DNA of 64,000 bases from Thermoproteota archaeon (GCA_029887795.1 JARXPE010000001.1:1386-65385); one strand, 5' to 3'. Counted from the stretch's first letter, positions 22,214 to 32,411 are shown. Notes: generated from the sequence alone by a model not told the origin. Translations and numbers: made by a program.

Positions 22214-22945
22214 TCAATCGATTATTACCGGAATGTTGCCCCTGTAGTGTATGACCCGCTCATTTTCAAGCGAAACTTTGAACGCCATTGTTGAAAGCCC
22301 GCGTCTTGAACCTTCCTTAACAGTTTGATAGAATAGAGGATCTGTTTCCATGTTAGGGCGTAGGCTATTTGCATCTGGTCGCATGACCACGAAAACAAGC
22401 AGAGGGCTAGCTCTGGGATACGCCAACATTCTCTCAATTTGTCGACTGCCCCTTGAAGTAGGCGCATCGGGGAATAGTGCAGTGCCTTCCCTGCAAAGCG
22501 TGCACCCCTTTACCTCGGTGATGAACCTTAACCCGTCCTTTTCTAGAAGGTAGTCAATCCTAGAATCACCACATCGCACCTCCTCGTCTATAATCTTATA
22601 ATCCAAAATTGAGAGTTCAATAGTCCTCTTCAATAGAATATTCGGCATCCTTGAATCCGTGATCACCCATAATCCTAAGGAACGGACCGCCAAAACATCA
22701 TACTGTGTTTTCCTGCCAATGCTTTGAATTTCCCTGAAGAGAACAGGGGCGCCTGGTAGGAGCAGTTCGCTGAGTCTACCAGGATCATGAAGGTGACAAG
22801 GCAGCGTTCTGCCATCATATTCCAACAAGACCGTAAAACGATTAGGTCTGGTTATGAAGGATCCCCTTCGAATTTTTCCAGGTATGTTGAGTAGAGGCAC
22901 ACGGACTGACTGTTTTACGCCCTCCATGAAAATCGCTCCCATCAA
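22214..22945 (-). CDS. sfsA: Sugar fermentation stimulation protein homolog SfsA
   Basis: 'RPNRFTVLLEYDGRTLPCHLHDPGRL' is characteristic of SfsA. 243 aa. Confidence 0.75.
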   Translation of the reverse strand: MMGAIFMEGVKQSVRVPLLNIPGKIRRGSFITRPNRFTVLLEYDGRTLPCHLHDPGRLSELLLPGAPVLFREIQSIGRKTQYDVLAVRSLGLWVITDSRMPNILLKRTIELSILDYKIIDEEVRCGDSRIDYLLEKDGLRFITEVKGCTLCREGTALFPDAPTSRGSRQIERMLAYPRASPLLVFVVMRPDANSLRPNMETDPLFYQTVKEGSRRGLSTMAFKVSLENERVIHYRGNIPVIID

Positions 22946-22985: not shown

Positions 22986-25877
22986 ATGGATGAAATTCTT
23001 TCTTACTTCTCCAAGCCGATTCAGAGGTTGCTAGCAGAGAGAGGGTTTGGAGAGTTCACTGAGCCCCAGAGGAGGGCTATTCCGACCATACTGGAAGGAA
23101 AGAACGTTCTGATAATTGCGCCCACTGGGACAGGCAAGACGGAGGCAGCGTTCTTGCCGATACTGGACAAGATTGTCAGGGAGGGTGGGAGGGGGGGCAT
23201 AAGGGTGCTCTACATAACGCCATTGAGGGCGTTGAACAGAGACCTCATGGAAAGGCTACAATGGTGGTGCGGAAGACTGGATCTAAGGGTTGCTGTGAGG
23301 CACGGGGATACGGAGACGAGGGAAAGGGGAAAGCAGGCGATGGCGCCCCCAGATGTTCTGATAACGACGCCCGAGACGCTACAAGCAATCCTCCCCGGAA
23401 AGAGGCTGAGGAGGCACCTCTCCAAGGTTAGGTGGGTGATAGTGGATGAGGTGCATGAACTCACAAATGACAAGAGGGGTAGCCAGCTCTCTGTAGGGCT
23501 GGAGAGGCTGAGGAGGATAACTGCGGCTGAGCCCCAGATAATCGGGCTCTCTGCTACCATAGGCTCCCCTGAGGAGGTCGCCAAGTTCTTGGTCGGCGTG
23601 GGAAGAGACTGTGAAATTGTGAGGGTCCCTGTAACAAAGGACATGGAGTTAGAGGTGGATATGCCTGAGGCGGACGAGGAGGACGTGAGGTTGGCAGAGA
23701 AGATAGCGACCTTCCCTGAGGTAGCAGCGAGGTTGAGGAGGATAAGGGAACTTGTTGAGAGATATCGTTCCACGCTGATCTTCACAAACACGAGGTCAGA
23801 GGCTGAGATCCTTGCAAGCAGGTTCAGGGTTTGGGACATGAACATGCCGGTGAGCATACATCATGGCAGCCTGGCAAAGTCCTCAAGGGTCGAGGCGGAG
23901 ACCAGCCTCAAGAGGGGAGAGCTTAAGGGCGTGGTTTGCACATCATCCTTGGAGCTTGGGATAGATATCGGAAGCATTGATCTTGTGGTCCAATACAATT
24001 CCCCGAGGCAGGCGACTAGGCTACTCCAAAGAGTTGGAAGGGCGGGGCACTGGGTGGGCGGGACCTCGAAGGGGGCAATCATCACCATGGACTCGGATGA
24101 CGCTCTGGAATCCTTGGTCATAGTCAAACGTAGCCTCAGGGAAGAGCTAGAGGAGGTTAAGATAATCCGCAAGCCCCTTGATGTTCTCGCCCACCAATTA
24201 GCAGGCTTACTCCTCGAATACGGCAGACTCACTGTTGATGATATTTTGGAGATCGTCAGGAGGGCTTATCCCTTCCAAGATCTGACAGAGGAGGAGCTCG
24301 GCGAAGTTTTGAACTACATGAGTGAGAGGAGACCTAGGCTTGCACTCTACGTGCCGGAAGAGGAGGTTGTGATAAAGACCAGACCTTACGAAAGTATCTT
24401 CAGGTATTATTTTGAGAACCTGTCAATGATACCAGAGGAGAAACACTACCTAGTAATTGACGAGGGGAAGGACGAGCCCATCGGCACGCTTGATGAGGCT
24501 TTTGTAGCAGAGTACGGCGAGCCTGGTGTGAAGTTCATAGTCAGGGGCTCGCCATGGAAGATAGTCCAAGTCTATAAAGATGTGGTTTACGTCAGGGCGG
24601 AGGAGGACCCGACAGGGGCTATACCGGACTGGGTCGGAGACGAAATACCCGTCCCCTTCGAGGTGGCACAGGAGGTCGGGAGGATAAAGGGCAGGGTTTG
24701 CGAGCTTTTGAGGCGCGGGATTCCATTCAAAGATGTGATCGAAGAGCTCAGAGCAGAGTACCCTGTATCGAAAGAACTGCTAAGTAAGGCTTTGACAGAA
24801 GTCAAGGAGCAGGCGGAAGGAAAATGGGAGGTTCCGACAGACAGGCTCATCACGGTTGAGGGGTGGGAGGGGTACGTAATAGTGAGTTGCTCCCTCGGGC
24901 TAATGATAAACAAGACGCTCTCAAGGGTACTAGCATACCTGATAACCATGAGGACTGGGAGCGGTGTGGGGGCATCTCAGGATCCCTACAGAATCTACCT
25001 GAAGACTTCGGTTGATGCTGAAATGGTGGCAGAGGTTCTGAAGAACCTCGATCCGAAAGACGTCGCCAGGTTGGCAGAGGTCTCCGTCGAGAAGACTGGA
25101 CTTTTCAGGAGGCGACTGCTCCACGTGGCAAAGAGGTTCGGAGTTGTGGAAAAGGGTGCAGACCTGAGCGATGTAGGCATGCAGCAACTAGTAGAAAGCA
25201 TGAGAGGGACTGTGATTTGGAGGGAGGCGATGAAGGAGGTTTTATTCAAGGATCTGGATGTCGAGGGACTCGAAAGATTTGCAAAGGGTCTCAAGGAAGG
25301 CACCTTCAAGGTCGTGGTTATGGACAGAGATCTCCCCTTATCGCCACTTTCAAGAGTAGGCATAAGAAAGCTGAGCTGGAAGACGGACCTAGTACCAGCC
25401 GATCGGTTGAGAAGGATCCTGATAGAGGCTGGAAAGGCTAGACTCCTGAACGAGGCAAGGATTGCGGTCTGCTCAGAGTGCTTCAGGTATGTGGAGAATG
25501 TAAAGATCAAGAGGTTTTTAGAGGGGCTTGCTTGTCCAGAGTGCGGGTCCAAGAAGATAGGTCTGGTGGATGGAGACATCCCAGAGGTTGCACAGATGGC
25601 ATCAGAGAGAGCGGAAAGGGGCAAAGTCTCTGATAAATTCAAGGAGATTTACAGGGCAGTGTTGGAGAGCGGAGAGCTAATAGGGATTTACGGGCTGCCA
25701 GCTGCCCTTGCGTTGGCAGCCAAGGGGCTTTCTAAGACTGCAATTGTGACATTGGCATCATCAAAGACGCCAGACATTGACTTTCTTGTGGATATGATCC
25801 TGAGAGAGGAAAAAGAAGTTCTAAGAAAAAGATACAAGAGAACGCATCCCCAGACTCAAACAGAAATGCAGGATTAG
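22986..25877 (+). CDS. lhr: Lhr-like large ATP-dependent DNA helicase (superfamily 2)
   Basis: 'APTGTGKT' motif I, 'DEVHEL' motif II, helicase C motifs and a long Lhr-type C-terminal region. 963 aa. Confidence 0.8.
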   Translation: MDEILSYFSKPIQRLLAERGFGEFTEPQRRAIPTILEGKNVLIIAPTGTGKTEAAFLPILDKIVREGGRGGIRVLYITPLRALNRDLMERLQWWCGRLDLRVAVRHGDTETRERGKQAMAPPDVLITTPETLQAILPGKRLRRHLSKVRWVIVDEVHELTNDKRGSQLSVGLERLRRITAAEPQIIGLSATIGSPEEVAKFLVGVGRDCEIVRVPVTKDMELEVDMPEADEEDVRLAEKIATFPEVAARLRRIRELVERYRSTLIFTNTRSEAEILASRFRVWDMNMPVSIHHGSLAKSSRVEAETSLKRGELKGVVCTSSLELGIDIGSIDLVVQYNSPRQATRLLQRVGRAGHWVGGTSKGAIITMDSDDALESLVIVKRSLREELEEVKIIRKPLDVLAHQLAGLLLEYGRLTVDDILEIVRRAYPFQDLTEEELGEVLNYMSERRPRLALYVPEEEVVIKTRPYESIFRYYFENLSMIPEEKHYLVIDEGKDEPIGTLDEAFVAEYGEPGVKFIVRGSPWKIVQVYKDVVYVRAEEDPTGAIPDWVGDEIPVPFEVAQEVGRIKGRVCELLRRGIPFKDVIEELRAEYPVSKELLSKALTEVKEQAEGKWEVPTDRLITVEGWEGYVIVSCSLGLMINKTLSRVLAYLITMRTGSGVGASQDPYRIYLKTSVDAEMVAEVLKNLDPKDVARLAEVSVEKTGLFRRRLLHVAKRFGVVEKGADLSDVGMQQLVESMRGTVIWREAMKEVLFKDLDVEGLERFAKGLKEGTFKVVVMDRDLPLSPLSRVGIRKLSWKTDLVPADRLRRILIEAGKARLLNEARIAVCSECFRYVENVKIKRFLEGLACPECGSKKIGLVDGDIPEVAQMASERAERGKVSDKFKEIYRAVLESGELIGIYGLPAALALAAKGLSKTAIVTLASSKTPDIDFLVDMILREEKEVLRKRYKRTHPQTQTEMQD

Positions 25878-26698: not shown

Positions 26699-27271
26699 TT
26701 AGGTCTGTTGAGGGTGAGGAGAAGACCCTGCGATAATGCTGACTAGGGTCTTACGATCTATCTCGGCGCGGGTCCTCCACCCAATGTAGAGGTTGCCTTC
26801 CTCGTCCTCATCCAAATAGCCCCTTCTTATAAACCTGTTAAGGTCCTGATCGACCTTCCAGTCTGGGAATTTTTCCTTCAGAAGCTCCTCAACTTCCCTT
26901 CTATTAGCCCTCCCCTGCTTTGAGGTTATGTAAGCCAAGGCTGCCGCCAGAACGGCAAGTGTGTCTATCCTCCAGCCTGAAAGTGAGGTCTCGCCGATCT
27001 GGAGGGGGGACTTGCAGATGACGTAAAATCGGGCCTGCTCAAGGTCGGCCTCCGTGGGCGTTTGATGGTCTAGACCGTCCTCGTAGACGATCTTTATCTC
27101 CAGCCCAAGCTCCTCCAAACGCCTCTCCAGAAGTTTTATTATCTTCATGTAATCCTTGCCCAATACCTTCCTCAGCTCCCACCCCTTCGCGCCTGGCAGA
27201 CGGTGGTGCTGGAAGAGTAGGAGCTGGGCAGCCTTCTTTAGTTTTCTAGATATGGTGACGTCCTCACTCAT
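26699..27271 (-). CDS. scpB: ScpB-like tandem winged-helix (kite) protein
   Basis: 'LKKAAQLLLF' ScpB N-terminal WH signature. Second WH 'LAVLAAALAYITSKQGRANRREVEELL...RGYL...GNLYIGWRT' matches the ScpB pattern. 190 aa. Confidence 0.6.
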   Translation of the reverse strand: MSEDVTISRKLKKAAQLLLFQHHRLPGAKGWELRKVLGKDYMKIIKLLERRLEELGLEIKIVYEDGLDHQTPTEADLEQARFYVICKSPLQIGETSLSGWRIDTLAVLAAALAYITSKQGRANRREVEELLKEKFPDWKVDQDLNRFIRRGYLDEDEEGNLYIGWRTRAEIDRKTLVSIIAGSSPHPQQT

Positions 27272-27275
27272 TCCT

Positions 27276-28157
27276 TTATCCCTTCATTTTTATGCTATTC
27301 CTCATCGCCATCCATTTCTCATAGGTTATAGAGATCGGAACGGATTTTCCTCCCTTCCTTTGCGTCTGTTTTCCCACGGTCTCGATCATAATAGTCTCCT
27401 CTACAGGGTTGATAATGAGGTTGGCGTAGCCATTCGATATGATGAAGCTGAGCGCGTATGCCCGCAACAGCGTCTCCTCATAGGTGTCTCTGATTACGAA
27501 CTTCCAGTAGTCCACGGGACCTCCCTCTGACTCTTTTGTCAACTCCTCTTGTAGCCTCCTGACCTCTTCATTGAATGCACGCTCAGAGAGAAACTTTAGC
27601 CTAATTAGCTCCGAGACCGCCAAGGTCTTTTCCTCCTGGAACTGGGCCGCCTCGAGTTCTCTCATCCTCTGGGAGAGTGGAAGGAGAACCCTCCAGTAGT
27701 CTAGCGCCTCCGAGAGCCTCTTTGGGGTCAGCTGCTCGGCGGCTATCAAAGGCCTCCAAGAGGCTAATAGGGCGGAGGCGAGCTCCTCTTTGCCAAGAAG
27801 CTTTATCTTAACCTCCACTAGGAAAGGGTCGATGAAGAGACCAGAGGCACGCCTCTTCACCCAGTCGCTCTGAAGTTTTACCATCAGGGAGAGCTCCTTA
27901 AGGGCTTCGGCATCCATGAGCAGCTCGTCAAGAAGTTTCCACTGAGGCAATAGCTTCTTGAGAACCTGCAGCTTTTGGGGGACGTCCACAAGGAAAGGAT
28001 CCTCCCCCTTTGCCCTTATGCTCTGGCACAGGTTTATTATGCGAGCGAGCTCCTCGTAGTACTCTTCTTTACGCGCTCGCTGTGGCAGCTTTGGCCACCT
28101 CCGACCTTCCGTGCACATTTTGGACGAATATGATGTTTGCGAACTCGCCCACCGCAC
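27276..28157 (-). CDS. scpA: ScpA-like kleisin
   Basis: C-terminal 'RAYALSFIISNGYANLIINPVEETIMIE' resembles the ScpA C-terminal winged helix. 293 aa. The annotated start overlaps the upstream SMC-like gene by about 89 nt, so the true start may be internal. Confidence 0.5.
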   Translation of the reverse strand: MRWASSQTSYSSKMCTEGRRWPKLPQRARKEEYYEELARIINLCQSIRAKGEDPFLVDVPQKLQVLKKLLPQWKLLDELLMDAEALKELSLMVKLQSDWVKRRASGLFIDPFLVEVKIKLLGKEELASALLASWRPLIAAEQLTPKRLSEALDYWRVLLPLSQRMRELEAAQFQEEKTLAVSELIRLKFLSERAFNEEVRRLQEELTKESEGGPVDYWKFVIRDTYEETLLRAYALSFIISNGYANLIINPVEETIMIETVGKQTQRKGGKSVPISITYEKWMAMRNSIKMKG

Positions 28158-29832
28158 TGAGCTGGCTCGGGGTAATCACTATAAACTGCACGTCCGAGCT
28201 GTCGTTCATGAAGGAGAAGAGCATCCTCATCATGGACTCCCTGTTGTGGGGATCCATGTGCACATCGAACTCGTCGACAGCCCTCACTGGCGATTTCAGG
28301 TGATCCTGCAAGGCTAGGAGGAACGCCATGGTTGCCACAGCCCTCTCTCCACCGCTCTGAGAGTATGCATCTAACAATACTGGCGAGGTGCCCCGGAACC
28401 CAACCGTGATCTCCACTCCAGCCCTGTCCGGGTCGTCCATGTTCAATAGGCGTATGGCACCGGTTCCGCCGACCCTTCCCAGGACAGAACGGTAAGTCGG
28501 ATTGATCTCCTCGATGAGTTTTTCCATCACGCCCCTCCAGACCCTCTTCCTTTCCTCCAACTCCTCGATAGTCTTTTTCCTGTTCTCTCCTACGACCTGA
28601 GCCTTTTGCTTCAATTCGTTGTAGGTTTTCAAGTAGGCCTGGTACATGGAAGGAGCGTCCTCGGGCACGTCGCCCAGGGATAGCAGGTGAGCGTTAACAA
28701 ACTTTATCTCGTCGGAGATCTCCAAGAGCGTCCTGCTGGTCTCGATCCTTTCACCTGCCTTATCCTTGAACTTCTCTGACTCCGCAAGAGATGCCTTGGC
28801 CTCCTGCAAGGAATTTTGCAACTCCTTAAGCTCTCTCTCGAGCTCGCCCTTGCGGTAGCGCATCACTGCCTCGTCAACCCTCAGCTCCACATACTTTTTG
28901 ACGACCTCGTCAAGTCTCTCGTCTATAAGACCCAGCGCTCTCAGCTCTGCGTCCTCTTTTTTGGTATTCAGAATGAAGCTCCGAAACTTTTCCTTCAGCA
29001 GAAGATAGTCGCCCCATAGGTTGCGTGCCTCCTCGCTCTTTGTGCGGATCCCCTTCTCAATAGCCTCGAGCTGGGAGGACTTCAAGCGGATCTTCTCTTC
29101 GATCTGTGCCACCGCACGCTCGTTCTTCAATATTTGGGCCCATATCAACTCCCTCTCGAGGTAGGCCTTCCTTTCGAGCAGGGACTTCTTCTCATTGTAC
29201 TTGTCGTTCAGCTCCTTCCAGTAAGCCAAGGTTTGCTCGGCACTGGCAAGGAGTTGTGAGGTGGCCTCCTCTTCGCCCAGTATCCTGTTGAGCCTCTCCT
29301 CCGACTCGTAAATGGCGCGCCTGTACTGTGAAAACCCGACCGCCTCTTCCACCATCTTGAGCTTCTCTTCAGGCGAGGTTATCGCAAACTCCTCAATCAT
29401 GTTTTGGTGCATTATTATGAGCATGTTATCAGGATTCATCCCGACCCCTTTGAAAAGCCTGTTCACATCAAATTTGCTCACTTGTCTGCCGTTTATCTCG
29501 AACCAGTACGTGCCGTCCTTCTTCAAATACCTTGAGACTGAGATGATATCGTTGTTTATGTACGGGACGGGGCGCTTTCCATCTTCTGCCCTGTTGTCCA
29601 ATATGAGTGTGACCCTCGCAGTTTCCTTGCCCCTTCGGATGAGATCTGCCAGCTTCCTAGATCGCTCGGTGTAGCTCTGCCCCGTTGCCACTGATATAGC
29701 TATGAGTATCGACGACTTTCCAGCGCCGTTGGGACCACATATCAGATTGAGACCGCGTCTGAGGGGCACCCTAGCGTACTCATAGGACATGAAATTTTCC
29801 AATACCACTTCGAGTATGGTGAGAGAGCTCAT
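28069..29832 (-). CDS. Half-length hinge-less SMC-like ABC ATPase
   Basis: N-terminal head with Walker A 'GPNGAGKSS'. Central heptad-rich coiled-coil region of roughly 230 aa. C-terminal head with signature 'QSGGERAVATMAFLLAL' and D-loop 'VDEFDVHMD'. The H-loop is 'FIVITPS', with no His. 587 aa. Confidence 0.75.
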   Translation of the reverse strand: MSSLTILEVVLENFMSYEYARVPLRRGLNLICGPNGAGKSSILIAISVATGQSYTERSRKLADLIRRGKETARVTLILDNRAEDGKRPVPYINNDIISVSRYLKKDGTYWFEINGRQVSKFDVNRLFKGVGMNPDNMLIIMHQNMIEEFAITSPEEKLKMVEEAVGFSQYRRAIYESEERLNRILGEEEATSQLLASAEQTLAYWKELNDKYNEKKSLLERKAYLERELIWAQILKNERAVAQIEEKIRLKSSQLEAIEKGIRTKSEEARNLWGDYLLLKEKFRSFILNTKKEDAELRALGLIDERLDEVVKKYVELRVDEAVMRYRKGELERELKELQNSLQEAKASLAESEKFKDKAGERIETSRTLLEISDEIKFVNAHLLSLGDVPEDAPSMYQAYLKTYNELKQKAQVVGENRKKTIEELEERKRVWRGVMEKLIEEINPTYRSVLGRVGGTGAIRLLNMDDPDRAGVEITVGFRGTSPVLLDAYSQSGGERAVATMAFLLALQDHLKSPVRAVDEFDVHMDPHNRESMMRMLFSFMNDSSDVQFIVITPSQLSAVGEFANIIFVQNVHGRSEVAKAATASA

Positions 29833-30043
29833 GTCGGGAACCCCTCAGGGCGCCTCAAATTCCACAAAAGACCCTTATAAGCCTCACTTTTGCCTTTTAT
29901 AGTCCGCACACTTGAAATTATTTTGATGGGTAAGTCAAAACCTATATTTTTTGAAGAACTTTGTTATTATTAATAAAGTTTATTATTTATAAATTTTAAT
30001 AATAATTTTAAACATCCTTTGCCTGCCAAAAAGGCGAGTAAAG

Positions 30044-30070
30044 TTTATGTAAATATGTTCATTTTTAAAT
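30044..30070 (+). promoter_or_regulatory. TATA-like elements upstream of topoisomerase IB (likely short-leader/leaderless promoter)
   Basis: 'TTTATGTAAATA' and 'TTTTTAAAT' lie 22–48 nt upstream of ATG 30092, in an AT-rich divergent intergenic region shared with the SMC-like operon. Confidence 0.3.
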
Positions 30071-30091
30071 TGGTGTTCATGGCGATCTTGG

Positions 30092-31630
30092 ATGGGAAGC
30101 ATTGAGATAAAACAGCTAATACATAATGGGGTACTCATACCCGTTTACAAGCCAATTGGCTTCAAGATAAAGTTCAGGGGGAAGGAGATCGCACTTAGCC
30201 CAGAGCAAGAAGAGATGGCGGTGGCTTGGGTTAAGAAGCTCTCTACAGACTACATTAAGGACAAAGTTTTTGTGAAGAACTTCTTCAAGGACTTTGGAAA
30301 GGCTTTGGGGGTAAAGGGCAAGATAGGACCTGAAGATTTTGATTTCTCGGAGATAATAGCCTGGTTGGAGAGGGAGAAGGCTAAGAAGGAGGCGATGAGC
30401 AAAGAGGAGAAGAAGGCGCTGGCGCAGGAGAGGAAGAGGATAAGAGAGGAGAATAAGAAGAAGTACGGCTTCGCGATTGTTAATGGAATGCCGATGGAGA
30501 TCTCCAACTACATGGTGGAGCCAGCCTGCATTTTCATGGGTAGAGGGGAGCACCCTCTTAGGGGTAGATGGAAACCAGGGGTCAAGGCAGAGGACATTAC
30601 GCTGAACCTCTCCCCAGACGCAAGGGTGCCCGATCCGCCGAATGGAGGCTCTTGGAAGTCCGTTGTGTTTGATCCCACATCGCTCTGGATCGCCAGTTGG
30701 AGGGACAAGCTCAGGGGCAAGATGAAGTACGTTTGGCTCTCAGACACGGCATACATAAAACAGGTGCGGGACATCGAGAAGTTTAACAAAGCTTGGGAGC
30801 TGGAAAAAATAATCGACAAGGTCAGGGAGCACATACAGAGGGGTTTGGAGTCGCACGATCAGCTTGAGAGGAAGATAGCGACCGTCTGTTACCTCATTGA
30901 CGAGCTGAAGCTCAGGGTCGGTGATGAGAAGGATGAGGATGAGGCGGACACGGTTGGCGCGACTACACTTAGACCCGAACATCTGAAGTTCAATCCGGAC
31001 GGCACCATAACTTTTGACTTCTTAGGCAAGGACTCTGTACGATGGGTCAGCACCATCAATCCGCCCGAGGTCGTCTATAGGAACTTGAAGGAGTTCATAG
31101 CAGAGGGAAACGAGACCATATTCAACGGGGTCAGATCGCAGAAGGTGAACGCATACCTAGCCGAGGTAATGCCTGGGCTGACTGCCAAGGTTTTCAGGAC
31201 TTACCACGCCTCCACAGCCACAAAGAGGGCTCTCCAAAGCGCCGATGTTGACAAAGAAGATCCGGTCTACGTCAAAAAGTACTATGCAACCATGGCGAAT
31301 TTGGAGGCTGCCAAGGTTTGCAACCACAAGAGGAAACTTCCCAAGAATTGGGAGGAGAGTCTAAGGAAGAAGGTTGAGAGGCTGAAGGCTCTCAAGGAGA
31401 AGAAGGCCAAAAAAGAGAAGATAGAGGAACTTAAGCTCAAGATAAATGCGATGAAGGCTACGAGAGATTACAATCTCAACACATCGCTGAAGAACTACAT
31501 CGATCCCAGGGTCTATGCCGACTGGGGGAGAAGGATAGATTTCGACTGGAAGCTTTACTATCCAAAATCGCTGCAGAGGAGGTTTGCTTGGGTGGATGGA
31601 GGAGAGACCGGAGTAGGTCCGATTATTTAA
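30092..31630 (+). CDS. Eukaryote-type DNA topoisomerase IB
   Basis: Core-domain motifs and the C-terminal active-site 'SLKNYIDPR' (catalytic Tyr about residue 469) in an SKxxY context. 512 aa. Confidence 0.85.
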   Translation: MGSIEIKQLIHNGVLIPVYKPIGFKIKFRGKEIALSPEQEEMAVAWVKKLSTDYIKDKVFVKNFFKDFGKALGVKGKIGPEDFDFSEIIAWLEREKAKKEAMSKEEKKALAQERKRIREENKKKYGFAIVNGMPMEISNYMVEPACIFMGRGEHPLRGRWKPGVKAEDITLNLSPDARVPDPPNGGSWKSVVFDPTSLWIASWRDKLRGKMKYVWLSDTAYIKQVRDIEKFNKAWELEKIIDKVREHIQRGLESHDQLERKIATVCYLIDELKLRVGDEKDEDEADTVGATTLRPEHLKFNPDGTITFDFLGKDSVRWVSTINPPEVVYRNLKEFIAEGNETIFNGVRSQKVNAYLAEVMPGLTAKVFRTYHASTATKRALQSADVDKEDPVYVKKYYATMANLEAAKVCNHKRKLPKNWEESLRKKVERLKALKEKKAKKEKIEELKLKINAMKATRDYNLNTSLKNYIDPRVYADWGRRIDFDWKLYYPKSLQRRFAWVDGGETGVGPII

Positions 31631-31727: not shown

Positions 31728-32411
31728 ATGGTTCTTGCAGGGAAAGTCTTCAAGATCAAAGAGGACATTGATCTATCCACAATCTCGGGAAAATTGAAGG
31801 GGTATCGGCATGAGGAGGAATTCACACATGGTGATGAAAAGATAACACTGATCACAGAGATAGGGGAGCTCGTTTTGGGCTCAGACTACTTGGAGGGGGC
31901 TTTTTTCCAAGATATTCCTTTTACCGTACGGCATAGGGGAGGGGAACGCCTCGTTGTCAAGACCTTGGAGGCACCGTTTTTATTTCAGGTGGACAAGGAC
32001 AGACTCCTGCTTGTCGTTCTTGAGAAGAAGAGAACTGCAAACAATATAGCCAATCAGCTTAGCAAGATATTATTCATCTCAACGGGGAGCATCGTGGAGG
32101 CAAAGATCCCACCGGAGACCCTCAGGAAATTTCACGAGGCAAACCCAGAGGATACAAAGGTAATATTTTTTGATGGTGTGGATATACCCAATGTTGATAA
32201 ACTCTCGCTTTACGGATCTCAGCTCGCCGACACCGCACTCTATAATGAGTATTTAACACATGGAACCATTTGGTACATTGTATTCAAGTCAAGGAAATAC
32301 GGCATAGTTGCGGGGGTGACCAGGAACTCTGTTGTGACTGCGTTCAGTGAGGTAAAACCGAAGGATTTTCTTGACTACATCAGGGATGAGATCTTTCCAC
32401 TCATCGAGTAA
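31728..32411 (+). CDS. Hypothetical protein
   Basis: 227 aa soluble ORF with coding-like composition and no recognisable motif. Confidence 0.45.
   Translation: MVLAGKVFKIKEDIDLSTISGKLKGYRHEEEFTHGDEKITLITEIGELVLGSDYLEGAFFQDIPFTVRHRGGERLVVKTLEAPFLFQVDKDRLLLVVLEKKRTANNIANQLSKILFISTGSIVEAKIPPETLRKFHEANPEDTKVIFFDGVDIPNVDKLSLYGSQLADTALYNEYLTHGTIWYIVFKSRKYGIVAGVTRNSVVTAFSEVKPKDFLDYIRDEIFPLIE

What the first reader, a model, noticed from the sequence alone, without database searches (positions are those of the whole stretch)
26699..29832. Compact operon: half-length hinge-less SMC-like ATPase + ScpA-like kleisin + ScpB-like kite protein
Three co-directional, overlapping or abutting minus-strand genes encode the following.
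(i) A 587-aa SMC-like protein with both ABC head halves: Walker A 'GPNGAGKSS', signature 'QSGGERAVAT', D-loop 'DEFDVHMD'. Only about 230 aa of coiled coil separate the heads, and there is no hinge domain. The H-loop His is replaced ('FIVITPS').
(ii) A 293-aa protein whose C-terminus ('RAYALSFIISNGYANLIINPVEETIMIE') looks like the ScpA C-terminal winged helix.
(iii) A 190-aa protein with ScpB-like tandem winged helices ('LKKAAQLLLF', '...LAYITSKQGRANRREVEEL...').
Canonical condensin SMC is about 1150–1200 aa with a hinge. Described archaeal SMC-like short proteins (Sph, ClsN, arcadin-type) are, to my knowledge, not reported with dedicated kleisin and kite partners in one operon. This could be a minimal condensin-like (or Wadjet/Mks-like without nuclease) DNA-organising or DNA-surveillance module. 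It might also be a lineage-specific replacement for canonical condensin.
Basis: partly seen in the sequence, partly recalled or inferred. Interest (0 to 1): 0.8.

Follow-up and report, generated by a model that had tools for sequence, protein, structure and literature searches.

The report
Archaeal SMC5/6-like short-arm complex operon
These three genes encode an archaeal relative of the eukaryotic SMC5/6 DNA-maintenance complex (ATPase, Nse4-like kleisin, Nse1/Nse3-like kite); this kind of operon is already described, but here the ATPase arm is half the usual length and ends in a plain hairpin instead of a hinge.

Summary
Three co-directional minus-strand genes are present: 587 aa, 280 aa (293 aa if read from an upstream GTG) and 190 aa. 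All the quoted motifs are there.

This is an SMC–kleisin–kite operon, but not a ScpA/ScpB one.
- The ATPase family profile matches yeast Smc5 and human SMC6 best (E about 1e-50), ahead of canonical Smc (3e-36).
- The quoted "lost H-loop" sequence 'ITPSQ' aligns with Smc5 'ITPKLL'.
- The kleisin family hits Nse4_C and human EID3.
- The organism is a Methanomethylicaceae archaeon, not a member of Nitrososphaeria.

Such SMC5/6-related operons in TACK and Asgard archaea are already published (Yoshinaga & Inagaki 2021; van Hooff et al., bioRxiv 2024/25).

The short, hinge-less arm is real. It is about 120 residues (about 18 nm) with a 5-residue tip. Similar lengths (about 550–700 aa) recur in relatives from at least 536 species, so the gene is not a pseudogene. 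I found no paper that comments on this architecture.

Related lineages carry a central CxxC motif or a true hinge at the same position.

A conserved 227-aa gene of unknown function and an Lhr helicase gene flank the operon in many lineages.

The likely role is an ATP-gated DNA clamp for chromosome maintenance or repair. This role is inferred, not shown.

The parts
28069..29832 (-). SMC5/6-type ABC ATPase, 587 aa. Head N-lobe is residues 1-165, the helical arm 168-452 and the head C-lobe 456-581.
   Evidence: Pfam SMC_N 1.2e-33. The family profile (A3) scores best in the PDB against yeast Smc5 (8.7e-51), human SMC6 (8.6e-49) and yeast Smc6 (1.4e-47), ahead of Pyrococcus Smc (2.8e-36). AlphaFold2 model pLDDT 83.8. 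Foldseek top hit is the Pyrococcus Smc head + coiled coil + joint construct 5xei (2.7e-26), followed by Smc5/6 head structures.
29710..29736 (-). Walker A / P-loop GPNGAGKSS (residues 33-41)
   Evidence: Read directly from the translation. G33, P34, N35, G36, G38, K39 and S40 are invariant in the 27-sequence family alignment.
28477..29331 (-). Antiparallel helical arm, residues 168-452. The ascending helix is 168-288. The descending helices are 294-353, 369-386 and 393-452, with a joint-like break at 354-392 that holds the invariant residues R362, T365 and R367.
   Evidence: DSSP assignment on the AlphaFold2 model. Invariant columns. The best structural match is an Smc head-coiled coil-joint construct.
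28954..28968 (-). Arm tip: a 5-residue turn (residues 289-293) in the place where a hinge domain would sit
   Evidence: Model. No SMC_hinge hit. The tip residues vary among 67 close homologues and are flanked by conserved 'LW..YL..KEKFR' and 'LG..DE.LD' stretches. The protein has a single Cys (C32), so there is no zinc hook.
28342..28359 (-). ABC signature motif QSGGER (residues 492-497)
   Evidence: Translation. Invariant in the family. Aligns with TQSGGER of yeast Smc5.
28252..28287 (-). Walker B and D-loop VRAVDEFDVHMD (residues 516-527; D520 and E521 are the Walker B acidic pair)
   Evidence: Translation. R517, A518, D520, E521, F522, D523, H525, M526 and D527 are invariant.
28162..28188 (-). 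QFIVITPSQ (residues 549-557): the SMC5/6-type sequence at the H-loop position
   Evidence: The family consensus 'qyivitPsqlt' aligns with yeast Smc5 'QYFLITPKLLT'. Q549, I553 and P555 are invariant; T554, S556 and Q557 are at least 90% conserved.
27276..28118 (-). Nse4-type kleisin, 280 aa from the ATG at 28118. The open frame runs upstream to a GTG at 28157. The gene overlaps the 3' end of the SMC gene by 50 nt.
   Evidence: Homologues are annotated at 276-282 aa. 18 of 19 family members hit Pfam Nse4_C (best 1.5e-7). The family profile matches human EID3 (3.3e-6) and yeast Nse4 (7e-4) in the PDB; its N-terminal region matches ScpA only at E = 0.12.
27285..27518 (-). C-terminal winged-helix domain of the kleisin (residues 201-278 of the 280-aa form), the presumed binding site for the SMC head cap
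   Evidence: Pfam Nse4_C match to residues 201-278 (E 0.0033 for this sequence alone; 18/19 family members). Alignment to EID3 residues 185-318. The binding role is inferred from known kleisins.
26699..27271 (-). Nse1/Nse3 (MAGE)-type kite protein, 190 aa, two winged-helix domains, no RING finger
29833..30091 (.). A+T-rich divergent intergenic region upstream of the SMC gene. It has TATA-like elements (TTATAA 48 nt and TATAAAA about 65 nt upstream of the ATG, read on the minus strand). Presumed operon promoter.
   Evidence: Sequence read. Promoter function is not tested.
31728..32411 (+). Conserved 227-aa protein of unknown family, transcribed divergently from the operon. Candidate additional partner, based on gene association only.
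   Evidence: tblastn finds it upstream of, and divergent from, the SMC gene in 49 of 80 loci, at 45-89% identity. The alignment has 48 invariant columns. No Pfam, NCBIfam, PADLOC or PDB-sequence match.

Best explanation
The locus encodes the archaeal 'SMC5/6-related' SMC complex. It has three parts: an SMC5/6-type ATPase (presumably a homodimer), an Nse4-type kleisin and an Nse1/Nse3-type kite, all made from one operon.

Shown here:
- The family identity of each protein.
- Intact ATPase motifs.
- A short arm (about 120 residues per strand, roughly 18 nm) that folds back through a 5-residue turn instead of a hinge.
- Strong conservation of both the proteins and the gene order.

Inferred from solved Smc5/6, Smc-ScpAB and MukBEF structures:
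- Two heads engage around two ATP molecules.
- The kleisin N-terminal helices bind the arm neck of one SMC, and its C-terminal winged helix binds the cap of the other head.
- A kite dimer sits on the middle of the kleisin.
- DNA is clamped on top of the engaged heads inside the kleisin/kite compartment.

There is no hinge and no zinc hook. The two SMC subunits are therefore probably held together mainly by the kleisin bridge and by ATP-dependent head engagement, possibly helped by the conserved sub-apical arm segments. On this reading the complex acts as a compact ATP-gated DNA clamp or bridge in chromosome maintenance or repair, not as a 50-nm ring.

In Methanomethylicia it may be the only SMC complex.
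For: ATPase:
- The family profile matches Smc5 and Smc6 (8.7e-51 to 1.4e-47) ahead of canonical Smc (2.8e-36) and Rad50 (1e-8).
- In a search of 1.84 billion representative proteins, the next best matches after the archaeal family are eukaryotic SMC6 and SMC5 and an Asgard (Thorarchaeota) protein.
- A neighbour-joining tree of the head columns agrees.
- The 'ITPSQ' motif equals Smc5 'ITPKLL'.

Kleisin: Nse4_C in 18 of 19 family members; PDB matches to EID3 (3.3e-6) and Nse4 (7e-4).

Architecture: AlphaFold2 model with pLDDT 83.8, helix 168-288, turn 289-293; no SMC_hinge hit; a single Cys.

A real and conserved system:
- At least 536 species genomes encode a relative.
- The 80 best loci all have ORFs of about 580-700 aa.
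- The order SMC, kleisin, kite is found in 56 of 57 non-euryarchaeal loci.
- Walker A, Q-loop, signature, Walker B and D-loop residues are invariant.

Housekeeping context: Lhr helicase, topoisomerase IB and the 227-aa gene are conserved neighbours.

Literature: the same operon type is reported for TACK and Asgard archaea, including a Bathyarchaeota example in the same gene order. A Methanomethylicaceae genome is scored there as having an Nse1/3-related kite.
Against: - No complex prediction or experiment links the three proteins.
- Sequence evidence for the kite alone is weak: no Pfam hit for this protein, and MAGE at 0.0026 in only 2 of 24 relatives.
- The kleisin N-terminal domain has no significant match (ScpA E = 0.12).
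- How a hinge-less SMC dimerises is unknown.
- In 9 of 9 euryarchaeal loci the same ATPase stands without an adjacent kleisin or kite. The ATPase may therefore work without them, or with partners encoded elsewhere.
- My phylogeny is neighbour-joining only, and support for the deep nodes is weak (38-62%).
- I did not confirm by accession number that this family is the published 'SMC5/6-related' clade.
Confidence: 0.8

Rival explanations
1. A minimal condensin of the Smc-ScpAB type: a shortened canonical Smc with ScpA and ScpB partners.
Against: There are no Pfam ScpA or ScpB hits at E <= 1. The kleisin C-terminus is Nse4_C. The kite aligns over both domains only with Nse1/Nse3. The ATPase profile prefers Smc5/6 by about 14 orders of magnitude in E-value.
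Confidence: 0.04
2. An SMC-based anti-plasmid or anti-phage defence module (Wadjet/Mks-like or Lamassu-like) that lacks a recognisable nuclease.
For: PADLOC models mad3 (2.3e-31), AriA, LmuB (1.7e-16) and JetC (3.9e-8) hit the ATPase. Lamassu LmuB also has arms of about 20 nm (PMC12663957). Eukaryotic Smc5/6 restricts extrachromosomal DNA (PMC10586767, abstract). JetB and MukE appear among the kite's structural matches.
Against: - The PADLOC hits are generic SMC_N/AAA matches.
- The kleisin and kite hit no PADLOC model.
- There is no JetD/Toprim, LmuA or other effector next to the operon.
- The system is in at least 536 species genomes, with identity that tracks taxonomy, and with conserved neighbours (Lhr, the 227-aa gene) across classes. 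That is the pattern of a core gene, not of a defence island.
Confidence: 0.07
3. A member of another short archaeal SMC-related family (ASRP/ClsN/Sph, arcadin-4) or a Rad50-like repair ATPase.
For: The length is similar (about 590 aa). There are weak NCBIfam hits to ASRP (4.1e-14), arcadin-4 (5.7e-11) and Rad50 models (2e-20).
Against: All these hits are far below their curated cut-offs (52 vs 300 bits for ASRP, 72 vs 700 for Rad50). The zinc hook found in most ASRPs and in Rad50 (PMC9389158) is absent: the protein has one Cys. No Mre11 gene is adjacent. A dedicated kleisin and kite are present.
Confidence: 0.02
4. A truncated or split pseudogene of a full-length smc, with the missing arm and hinge encoded nearby.
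For: The gene is half the canonical length. Long forms (928-1047 aa) exist in the same family.
Against: The frame is intact and every catalytic motif is invariant. Lengths of 550-700 aa recur in hundreds of species. No second SMC-like ORF exists anywhere in the 64-kb window.
Confidence: 0.01

Closest known systems
Archaeal 'SMC5/6-related' SMC complex (SMC5/6-related aSMC of Yoshinaga & Inagaki 2021, PMC8665677; SMC + Nse4-related kleisin + Nse1/3-related kite operons of van Hooff et al., bioRxiv 10.1101/2024.01.07.573240)
   Same: - The taxa match: TACK archaea, including Verstraetearchaeota and Bathyarchaeota.
- The gene order is the same: SMC, kleisin, kite.
- All three proteins show the same affinities, to SMC5/6, Nse4 and Nse1/3.

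This locus is best filed as a member of this group.
   Different: In the text held here, those papers treat the proteins phylogenetically. They do not mention arm length or loss of the hinge. Here the arm is about half length and ends in a hairpin. I did not verify identity with their clade by accession number.
Eukaryotic Smc5/6 core (Smc5-Smc6 with Nse4, Nse1, Nse3)
   Same: - Head sequence, including the 'ITP' motif at the H-loop position.
- The Nse4_C winged helix.
- A kite with the Nse1/Nse3 fold.

By analogy it probably clamps DNA on engaged heads in the same way.
   Different: - One SMC gene, so a homodimer, rather than an Smc5/Smc6 heterodimer.
- 587 aa rather than about 1100 aa.
- No hinge.
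- One kite gene rather than two.
- The kite has no RING finger.
- No Nse2, Nse5 or Nse6 was recognised near the operon.
Bacterial and archaeal Smc-ScpAB
   Same: The same three-part logic (SMC, kleisin, tandem-winged-helix kite), encoded in an operon, with a homodimeric SMC.
   Different: Canonical Smc is about 1150-1200 aa with a hinge and arms of about 47-50 nm. The ScpA and ScpB families are not matched here.
Short-armed SMC-like ATPases: Lamassu LmuB, RecN, Rad50, and ASRP/ClsN
   Same: A short coiled coil of about 20 nm (LmuB, PMC12663957). Dimerisation does not use an SMC hinge.
   Different: Those proteins lack a kleisin + kite pair. Rad50 and most ASRPs use a CxxC zinc hook. LmuB works with nuclease effectors. 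The sequence matches here are only generic.
Hinge-less SMC variants of marine Actinobacteria (PMC12153180)
   Same: A natural SMC predicted to lack the hinge domain.
   Different: They belong to a bacterial, canonical-SMC lineage. They are described as full-length-scale proteins and are not linked to Nse4/Nse3-type partners.

Membership tests
Archaeal SMC5/6-related SMC-kleisin-kite complex | ATPase heads closer to eukaryotic SMC5/SMC6 than to canonical SMC1-4 or bacterial/archaeal Smc | tested here: met
   PDB profile search: Smc5 8.7e-51, SMC6 8.6e-49, Smc 2.8e-36. The nearest non-family representatives are eukaryotic SMC6 and SMC5 and a Thorarchaeota protein. Neighbour-joining tree.
Archaeal SMC5/6-related SMC-kleisin-kite complex | Adjacent Nse4-related kleisin | tested here: met
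   Pfam Nse4_C in 18 of 19 family members. Matches to EID3 and Nse4 in the PDB. The gene overlaps the SMC stop codon.
Archaeal SMC5/6-related SMC-kleisin-kite complex | Nse1/Nse3-related kite encoded next to the kleisin | tested here: met
Archaeal SMC5/6-related SMC-kleisin-kite complex | Placement inside the published clade by maximum-likelihood phylogeny or by shared accession numbers | not tested
   I made only a neighbour-joining tree with 100 bootstraps. The accession lists of PMC8665677 are not held.
Eukaryotic Smc5/6 holo-complex | Hinge-mediated Smc5-Smc6 heterodimer with long arms (about 1100 aa each) | tested here: not met
   A single SMC gene of 587 aa. No hinge in the model or in Pfam.
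Eukaryotic Smc5/6 holo-complex | Nse1 RING finger, Nse2 SUMO ligase and the Nse5/Nse6 pair | tested here: inconclusive
   The single kite is 190 aa and ends right after its second winged helix, so it has no RING. No neighbour gave a RING or SP-RING hit. The rest of the genome could not be searched.
Smc-ScpAB (prokaryotic condensin) | Smc of about 1150-1200 aa with an SMC_hinge domain | tested here: not met
   587 aa. No PF06470 hit at E <= 1. TIGR02169 scores 195 bits against a cut-off of 729.
Smc-ScpAB (prokaryotic condensin) | ScpA-family kleisin and ScpB-family kite | tested here: not met
Wadjet (JetABCD) / MksBEF | JetC/MksB ATPase with JetA/MksF, JetB/MksE and the JetD nuclease | tested here: not met
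   JetC matches only at 3.9e-8, on the coiled coil. The kleisin and kite hit no PADLOC model. No Toprim/JetD-like neighbour.
Lamassu | LmuB with LmuA effector and LmuC | tested here: not met
   LmuB 1.7e-16 is a generic head match. No LmuA or LmuC match among the neighbours.
ASRP (ClsN/Sph) and Rad50 | Family-level sequence score and a CxxC zinc hook at the arm apex | tested here: not met
   ASRP 52 bits against a cut-off of 300; Rad50 72 bits against 700. A single Cys at residue 32.

The most novel reading that the evidence does not exclude
The short forms are a natural 'minimal' SMC5/6-lineage machine.
- The complex would be a hinge-less homodimer with arms of about 18 nm.
- The dimer would be closed only by an Nse4-type kleisin, a kite dimer and ATP.
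- In Methanomethylicia it would serve as the sole SMC complex.
- It would work together with the conserved 227-aa neighbour, and perhaps with Lhr helicase and topoisomerase IB.

The arm apex would be an evolutionarily exchangeable module. This family shows a plain hairpin here, a central CxxC motif in some Bathyarchaeota, and a true hinge in Asgard relatives. That would mean the core activity of SMC5/6-type complexes does not need a hinge or a large SMC lumen.
Probability: 0.3. Interest if true: 0.75.

Novelty: new member of a known kind. Interest (0 to 1): 0.5.

Why it matters
SMC5/6 is the least understood eukaryotic SMC complex, and its archaeal relatives are known only from phylogenies. 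This locus, with hundreds of relatives, shows that most TACK versions are compact: about 590-680 aa, no hinge, and one kleisin and one kite.

That makes them attractive for structural and biochemical work on three questions:
- What is the minimal working core of an SMC5/6-type machine?
- Does a hinge or a long arm matter for DNA clamping as opposed to loop extrusion?
- How did the eukaryotic complex arise?

Two cultivated relatives with complete genomes exist (Methanosuratincola petrocarbonis LWZ-6 and M. verstraetei LCB70), so the question can be tested experimentally.

The conserved 227-aa neighbour and the recurrent Lhr linkage give concrete candidates for partners.

If the complex is the only SMC system in Methanomethylicia, it also qualifies the common statement that Thermoproteota lack SMC complexes.

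Tried and rejected
- **ScpA/ScpB assignment.** No Pfam or NCBIfam hits. Profile and fold searches point to Nse4 and Nse1/Nse3 instead.
- **Defence-system assignment.** PADLOC hits only the generic ATPase head, and nothing for the kleisin, the kite or the 227-aa protein.
- **Split gene or pseudogene.** No other SMC-like ORF in the window.
- **The 227-aa neighbour as a second kite (an Nse1 counterpart).** hhalign against the kite family was negative (probability 0.5%). No Pfam hit in any of 19 members, and none in NCBIfam or by PDB sequence search.
- **Long relatives.** I tried to confirm that the central segment of the 982-aa relative P0355 is a hinge, and that the CxxC segment of the 1047-aa relative P0310 is a Rad50-type hook. 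PDB sequence searches gave nothing significant. Both remain look-alikes only.
- **Is there a canonical smc/scpA/scpB in the same genome?** Not possible. The supplements of PMC8665677 are not held. Papers on Methanosuratincola or Methanomethylicia do not address it.
- **Literature on hinge-less or short archaeal SMC5/6 relatives.** The only hinge-less SMC report found concerns Actinobacteria.
- **The 1202-aa ORF near the solitary ATPase in ANME-1 locus L066.** It is not an SMC; it gives only weak AAA hits.

Full report
**1. The observation**

- 28069-29832, 587 aa
- 27276-28157, 293 aa from a GTG
- 26699-27271, 190 aa

Every quoted peptide is in the translations. The middle gene more likely starts at the ATG at 28118, giving 280 aa, because deposited homologues are 276-282 aa. 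With that start it overlaps the SMC gene by 50 nt. The third gene starts 4 nt after the second one stops. The tight spacing fits one transcription unit. It would be driven from the A+T-rich region 29833-30091, which holds TATA-like elements. Promoter function was not tested.

**2. The organism**

Proteins 100% identical to the ATPase are deposited from Candidatus Methanomethylicaceae / Verstraetearchaeota MAGs. The window is therefore not from Nitrososphaeria.

**3. The ATPase**

- Pfam gives SMC_N at 1.2e-33 and no hinge domain, even at E <= 1.
- Every NCBIfam match (SMC_prok_A, Rad50, ASRP, arcadin-4, RecF, RecN) lies far below its curated cut-off.
- A profile of 27 diverse homologues (A3) was searched against all PDB sequences. 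The order of matches was yeast Smc5 (8.7e-51), human SMC6 (8.6e-49), yeast Smc6 (1.4e-47) and human SMC5 (4.9e-39). Only then came Pyrococcus Smc (2.8e-36), condensin and cohesin SMCs, and Rad50 (about 1e-8).
- In that alignment the family consensus 'qyivitPsqlt' pairs with Smc5 'QYFLITPKLLT'.
- The same profile was run against 1.84 billion representative proteins. It returned the archaeal family first. The next matches, at about 200 bits, were eukaryotic SMC6 (Sycon) and SMC5 (Anabrus) and a Thorarchaeota protein.
- Walker A, Q-loop (Q143), signature, Walker B (D520, E521) and D-loop residues are invariant across the family. The enzyme should be active.

**4. Architecture**

The AlphaFold2 model (pLDDT 83.8) has these elements:
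- head N-lobe, residues 1-165
- one continuous helix, 168-288
- a five-residue turn, 289-293
- returning helices 294-353, 369-386 and 393-452
- head C-lobe, 456-581

The break at 354-392 carries the invariant residues R362, T365 and R367. It corresponds to the SMC 'joint': the best structural match is the engineered Pyrococcus 'head + coiled coil + joint' construct 5xei (2.7e-26), followed by Smc5/6 head-region structures.

At about 0.15 nm per residue (general knowledge of coiled coils), the arm is roughly 18 nm long. Canonical SMCs have arms of about 50 nm.

The tip residues vary among 67 close homologues, but conserved segments flank them ('LW..YL..KEKFR' and 'LG..DE.LD'). The protein has one cysteine, so there is no zinc hook.

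**5. The kleisin**

The sequence alone hits only Pfam Nse4_C, and weakly (0.0036). However, 18 of 19 family members hit that model (best 1.5e-7). The family profile finds human EID3/NSMCE4B (3.3e-6) and yeast Nse4 (7e-4 to 2e-3) in the PDB. ScpA appears only at E = 0.12, for the N-terminal region. It is a kleisin of the Nse4 type.

**6. The kite**

No Pfam model hits this protein. Two of 24 relatives touch the MAGE model (0.0026), and one database names a homologue a MAGE-domain protein.

The AlphaFold2 model (pLDDT 83.9) has two winged-helix domains.
- Foldseek ranks MAGE-G1/NSE3 (4.6e-6) and the Nse1-Nse3-Nse4 complex (5.9e-6, TM 0.64) first. JetB and MukE come later.

It is a kite of the Nse1/Nse3 type, without the Nse1 RING finger.

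**7. Distribution and synteny**

The best 80 come from Methanomethylicia, Nitrososphaerales, Bathyarchaeia, Hadarchaeales, Hydrothermarchaeota, ANME-1 and Methanosarcinales, with matches spanning about 580-660 codons.

HMMs built from the three family alignments find SMC, then kleisin, then kite on the same strand in 56 of 57 non-euryarchaeal loci with at least 1.6 kb downstream. They find this in none of the 9 euryarchaeal loci, where the ATPase stands alone.

No second SMC-like ORF exists in the window. The gene is neither split nor decayed.

**8. What is already known**

Yoshinaga & Inagaki (PMC8665677) defined 'SMC5/6-related' archaeal SMCs, mostly in TACK lineages and including Verstraetearchaeota.

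van Hooff et al. (bioRxiv 10.1101/2024.01.07.573240) showed that TACK and Asgard archaea carry a second operon encoding an SMC5/6-related SMC, an Nse4-related kleisin and an Nse1/3-related kite. Kleisin and kite were neighbours in all 31 cases they examined. Their examples include a Bathyarchaeota locus in the same gene order. Their table scores a Methanomethylicaceae genome as having an Nse1/3-related kite and no ScpB-like kite.

The locus is therefore a member of a described kind of system.

In the text I could read, neither paper mentions the length of these proteins or the absence of a hinge. Further searches found hinge-less SMCs reported only for marine Actinobacteria.

**9. Variation at the arm apex**

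Among the closest representatives most are 550-685 aa, but a few are long.
- Three Bathyarchaeota clusters (1016-1047 aa, for example RLI38935.1) carry a CxxC motif exactly at the midpoint ('PQIRCDKCGS'). In a neighbour-joining tree of the head columns they form one clade (99% bootstrap) nested beside short Bathyarchaeal forms (76%).
- An Asgard (Freyarchaeum) relative of 835 aa has a Pfam SMC_hinge domain (4.6e-11).
- A 982-aa form near the base of the family has a central segment that does not look like coiled coil.

PDB sequence searches could confirm neither the hook nor that possible hinge. The apex appears to be exchangeable in this family. The direction of change is not settled, because support for the deep nodes is 38-62%.

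**10. Genomic context**

Three neighbours recur:
- An Lhr-type helicase (22986-25877), convergent with the operon, in 21 of the 80 loci (two of these matches below 40% identity), spanning Methanomethylicia, Nitrososphaerales, Bathyarchaeota, a Hadarchaeales-like MAG and Hydrothermarchaeota.
- A eukaryote-type topoisomerase IB (30092-31630) just upstream in Methanomethylicales.
- A 227-aa protein (31728-32411), upstream and divergent in 49 of 80 loci. Three of these are euryarchaeal loci that lack an adjacent kleisin and kite.

The 227-aa protein has 48 invariant positions and no match in Pfam, NCBIfam, PADLOC or PDB sequences. It is not a second kite. This context is that of core DNA-metabolism genes, not of a defence island.

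**11. Mechanism**

Shown: the identity of the parts, intact catalytic motifs, the short hairpin arm, and the conservation.

Inferred from solved Smc5/6, Smc-ScpAB and MukBEF complexes:
- Two heads sandwich two ATP molecules.
- The Nse4-type kleisin links the neck of one SMC to the cap of the other.
- A kite dimer binds the central part of the kleisin.
- DNA is clamped on the engaged heads.

With neither a hinge nor a hook, the two SMCs are probably joined by the kleisin and by head engagement, possibly with help from the conserved sub-apical segments. The complex then looks like a compact ATP-gated clamp or bridge working in chromosome maintenance or repair. I put about 0.8 on the identity and about 0.5 on this mode of action.

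**12. Rivals**

- A ScpAB-type condensin is disfavoured by every family test.
- A defence module is disfavoured by the core-gene distribution and the lack of an effector.
- ASRP or Rad50 membership fails on score and on the missing hook.
- A pseudogene is excluded by conservation.

**13. Verdict**

The locus is a new member of a known kind, the archaeal SMC5/6-related complex. Its half-length, hinge-less architecture is conserved and, as far as I could find, not commented on in the literature. That feature and the conserved 227-aa neighbour are what deserve follow-up.

Noticed in passing
window 31728-32411 (+); also e.g. L010:5228-5896, L020:2240-2917, L067:5075-5773: A 227-aa protein with no match in any family library lies upstream of, and divergent from, the SMC gene in 49 of 80 loci (45-89% identity, 48 invariant positions). 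Three of these are euryarchaeal loci that lack an adjacent kleisin and kite. It is a candidate extra partner of the ATPase.
   Followed up: partly
window 22986-25877 (+): An Lhr-type helicase (Pfam DEAD, Helicase_C, WH_Lhr, DEAD_assoc) sits convergent to the operon. It keeps that position in 21 of the 80 loci (two of these matches below 40% identity), across Methanomethylicia, Nitrososphaerales, Bathyarchaeota, a Hadarchaeales-like MAG and Hydrothermarchaeota. This hints at a functional link to DNA repair.
   Followed up: partly
window 30092-31630 (+): A eukaryote-type topoisomerase IB (Topoisom_I_N 1.1e-61, Topoisom_I 2.8e-70, Topo_C_assoc) is inserted between the SMC operon and the 227-aa gene. 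It is found there in 10 of the 12 Methanomethylicia-type loci (L001-L012) and in no locus from another lineage.
   Followed up: partly
P0310 (1047 aa, RLI38935.1), P0314 (1028 aa), P0320 (1016 aa); Bathyarchaeota (no source gives a name for P0320): These are long members of the same ATPase family. Each has a CxxC motif exactly at the midpoint of a long helical region ('PQIRCDKCGS'). It looks like a Rad50/ASRP-type zinc hook on an SMC5/6-type head. They form one clade (99% bootstrap) nested among short forms (76%).
   Followed up: partly
P0387 (835 aa, Candidatus Freyarchaeum deiterrae) and P0355 (982 aa): These relatives of the family keep a central globular segment. P0387 has a Pfam SMC_hinge domain (4.6e-11) on rather short arms. 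The central segment of P0355 gave no significant match.
   Followed up: partly
L047, L053, L058, L061, L066, L067, L069, L076, L078: In ANME-1, Methanosarcinales and 'Halobacteria' MAG loci the same short ATPase (about 640-680 aa) has no kleisin or kite gene within 3.5 kb on either side. Any partners must be encoded elsewhere, or the ATPase works alone.
   Followed up: partly
L056:8007-9248: One Bathyarchaeia locus has a 414-aa ORF with no Pfam match inserted between the SMC and kleisin genes. No kite gene is detectable after the kleisin; a ThiC gene follows instead.
   Followed up: no
window residues 262-322 of the ATPase (about 28867-29049): The segments just below the arm tip ('LW..YL..KEKFR' and 'LG..DE.LD..V..Y') are strongly conserved among 67 close homologues, while the tip itself varies. 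This may be an interaction or dimerisation surface.
   Followed up: no
window 22217-22945 (-): An SfsA-family protein (SfsA_N OB domain and SfsA RE nuclease-like domain) is encoded next to the Lhr gene. A homologue sits just beyond the Lhr gene in L002 and L006, and one is also present in L010.
   Followed up: no
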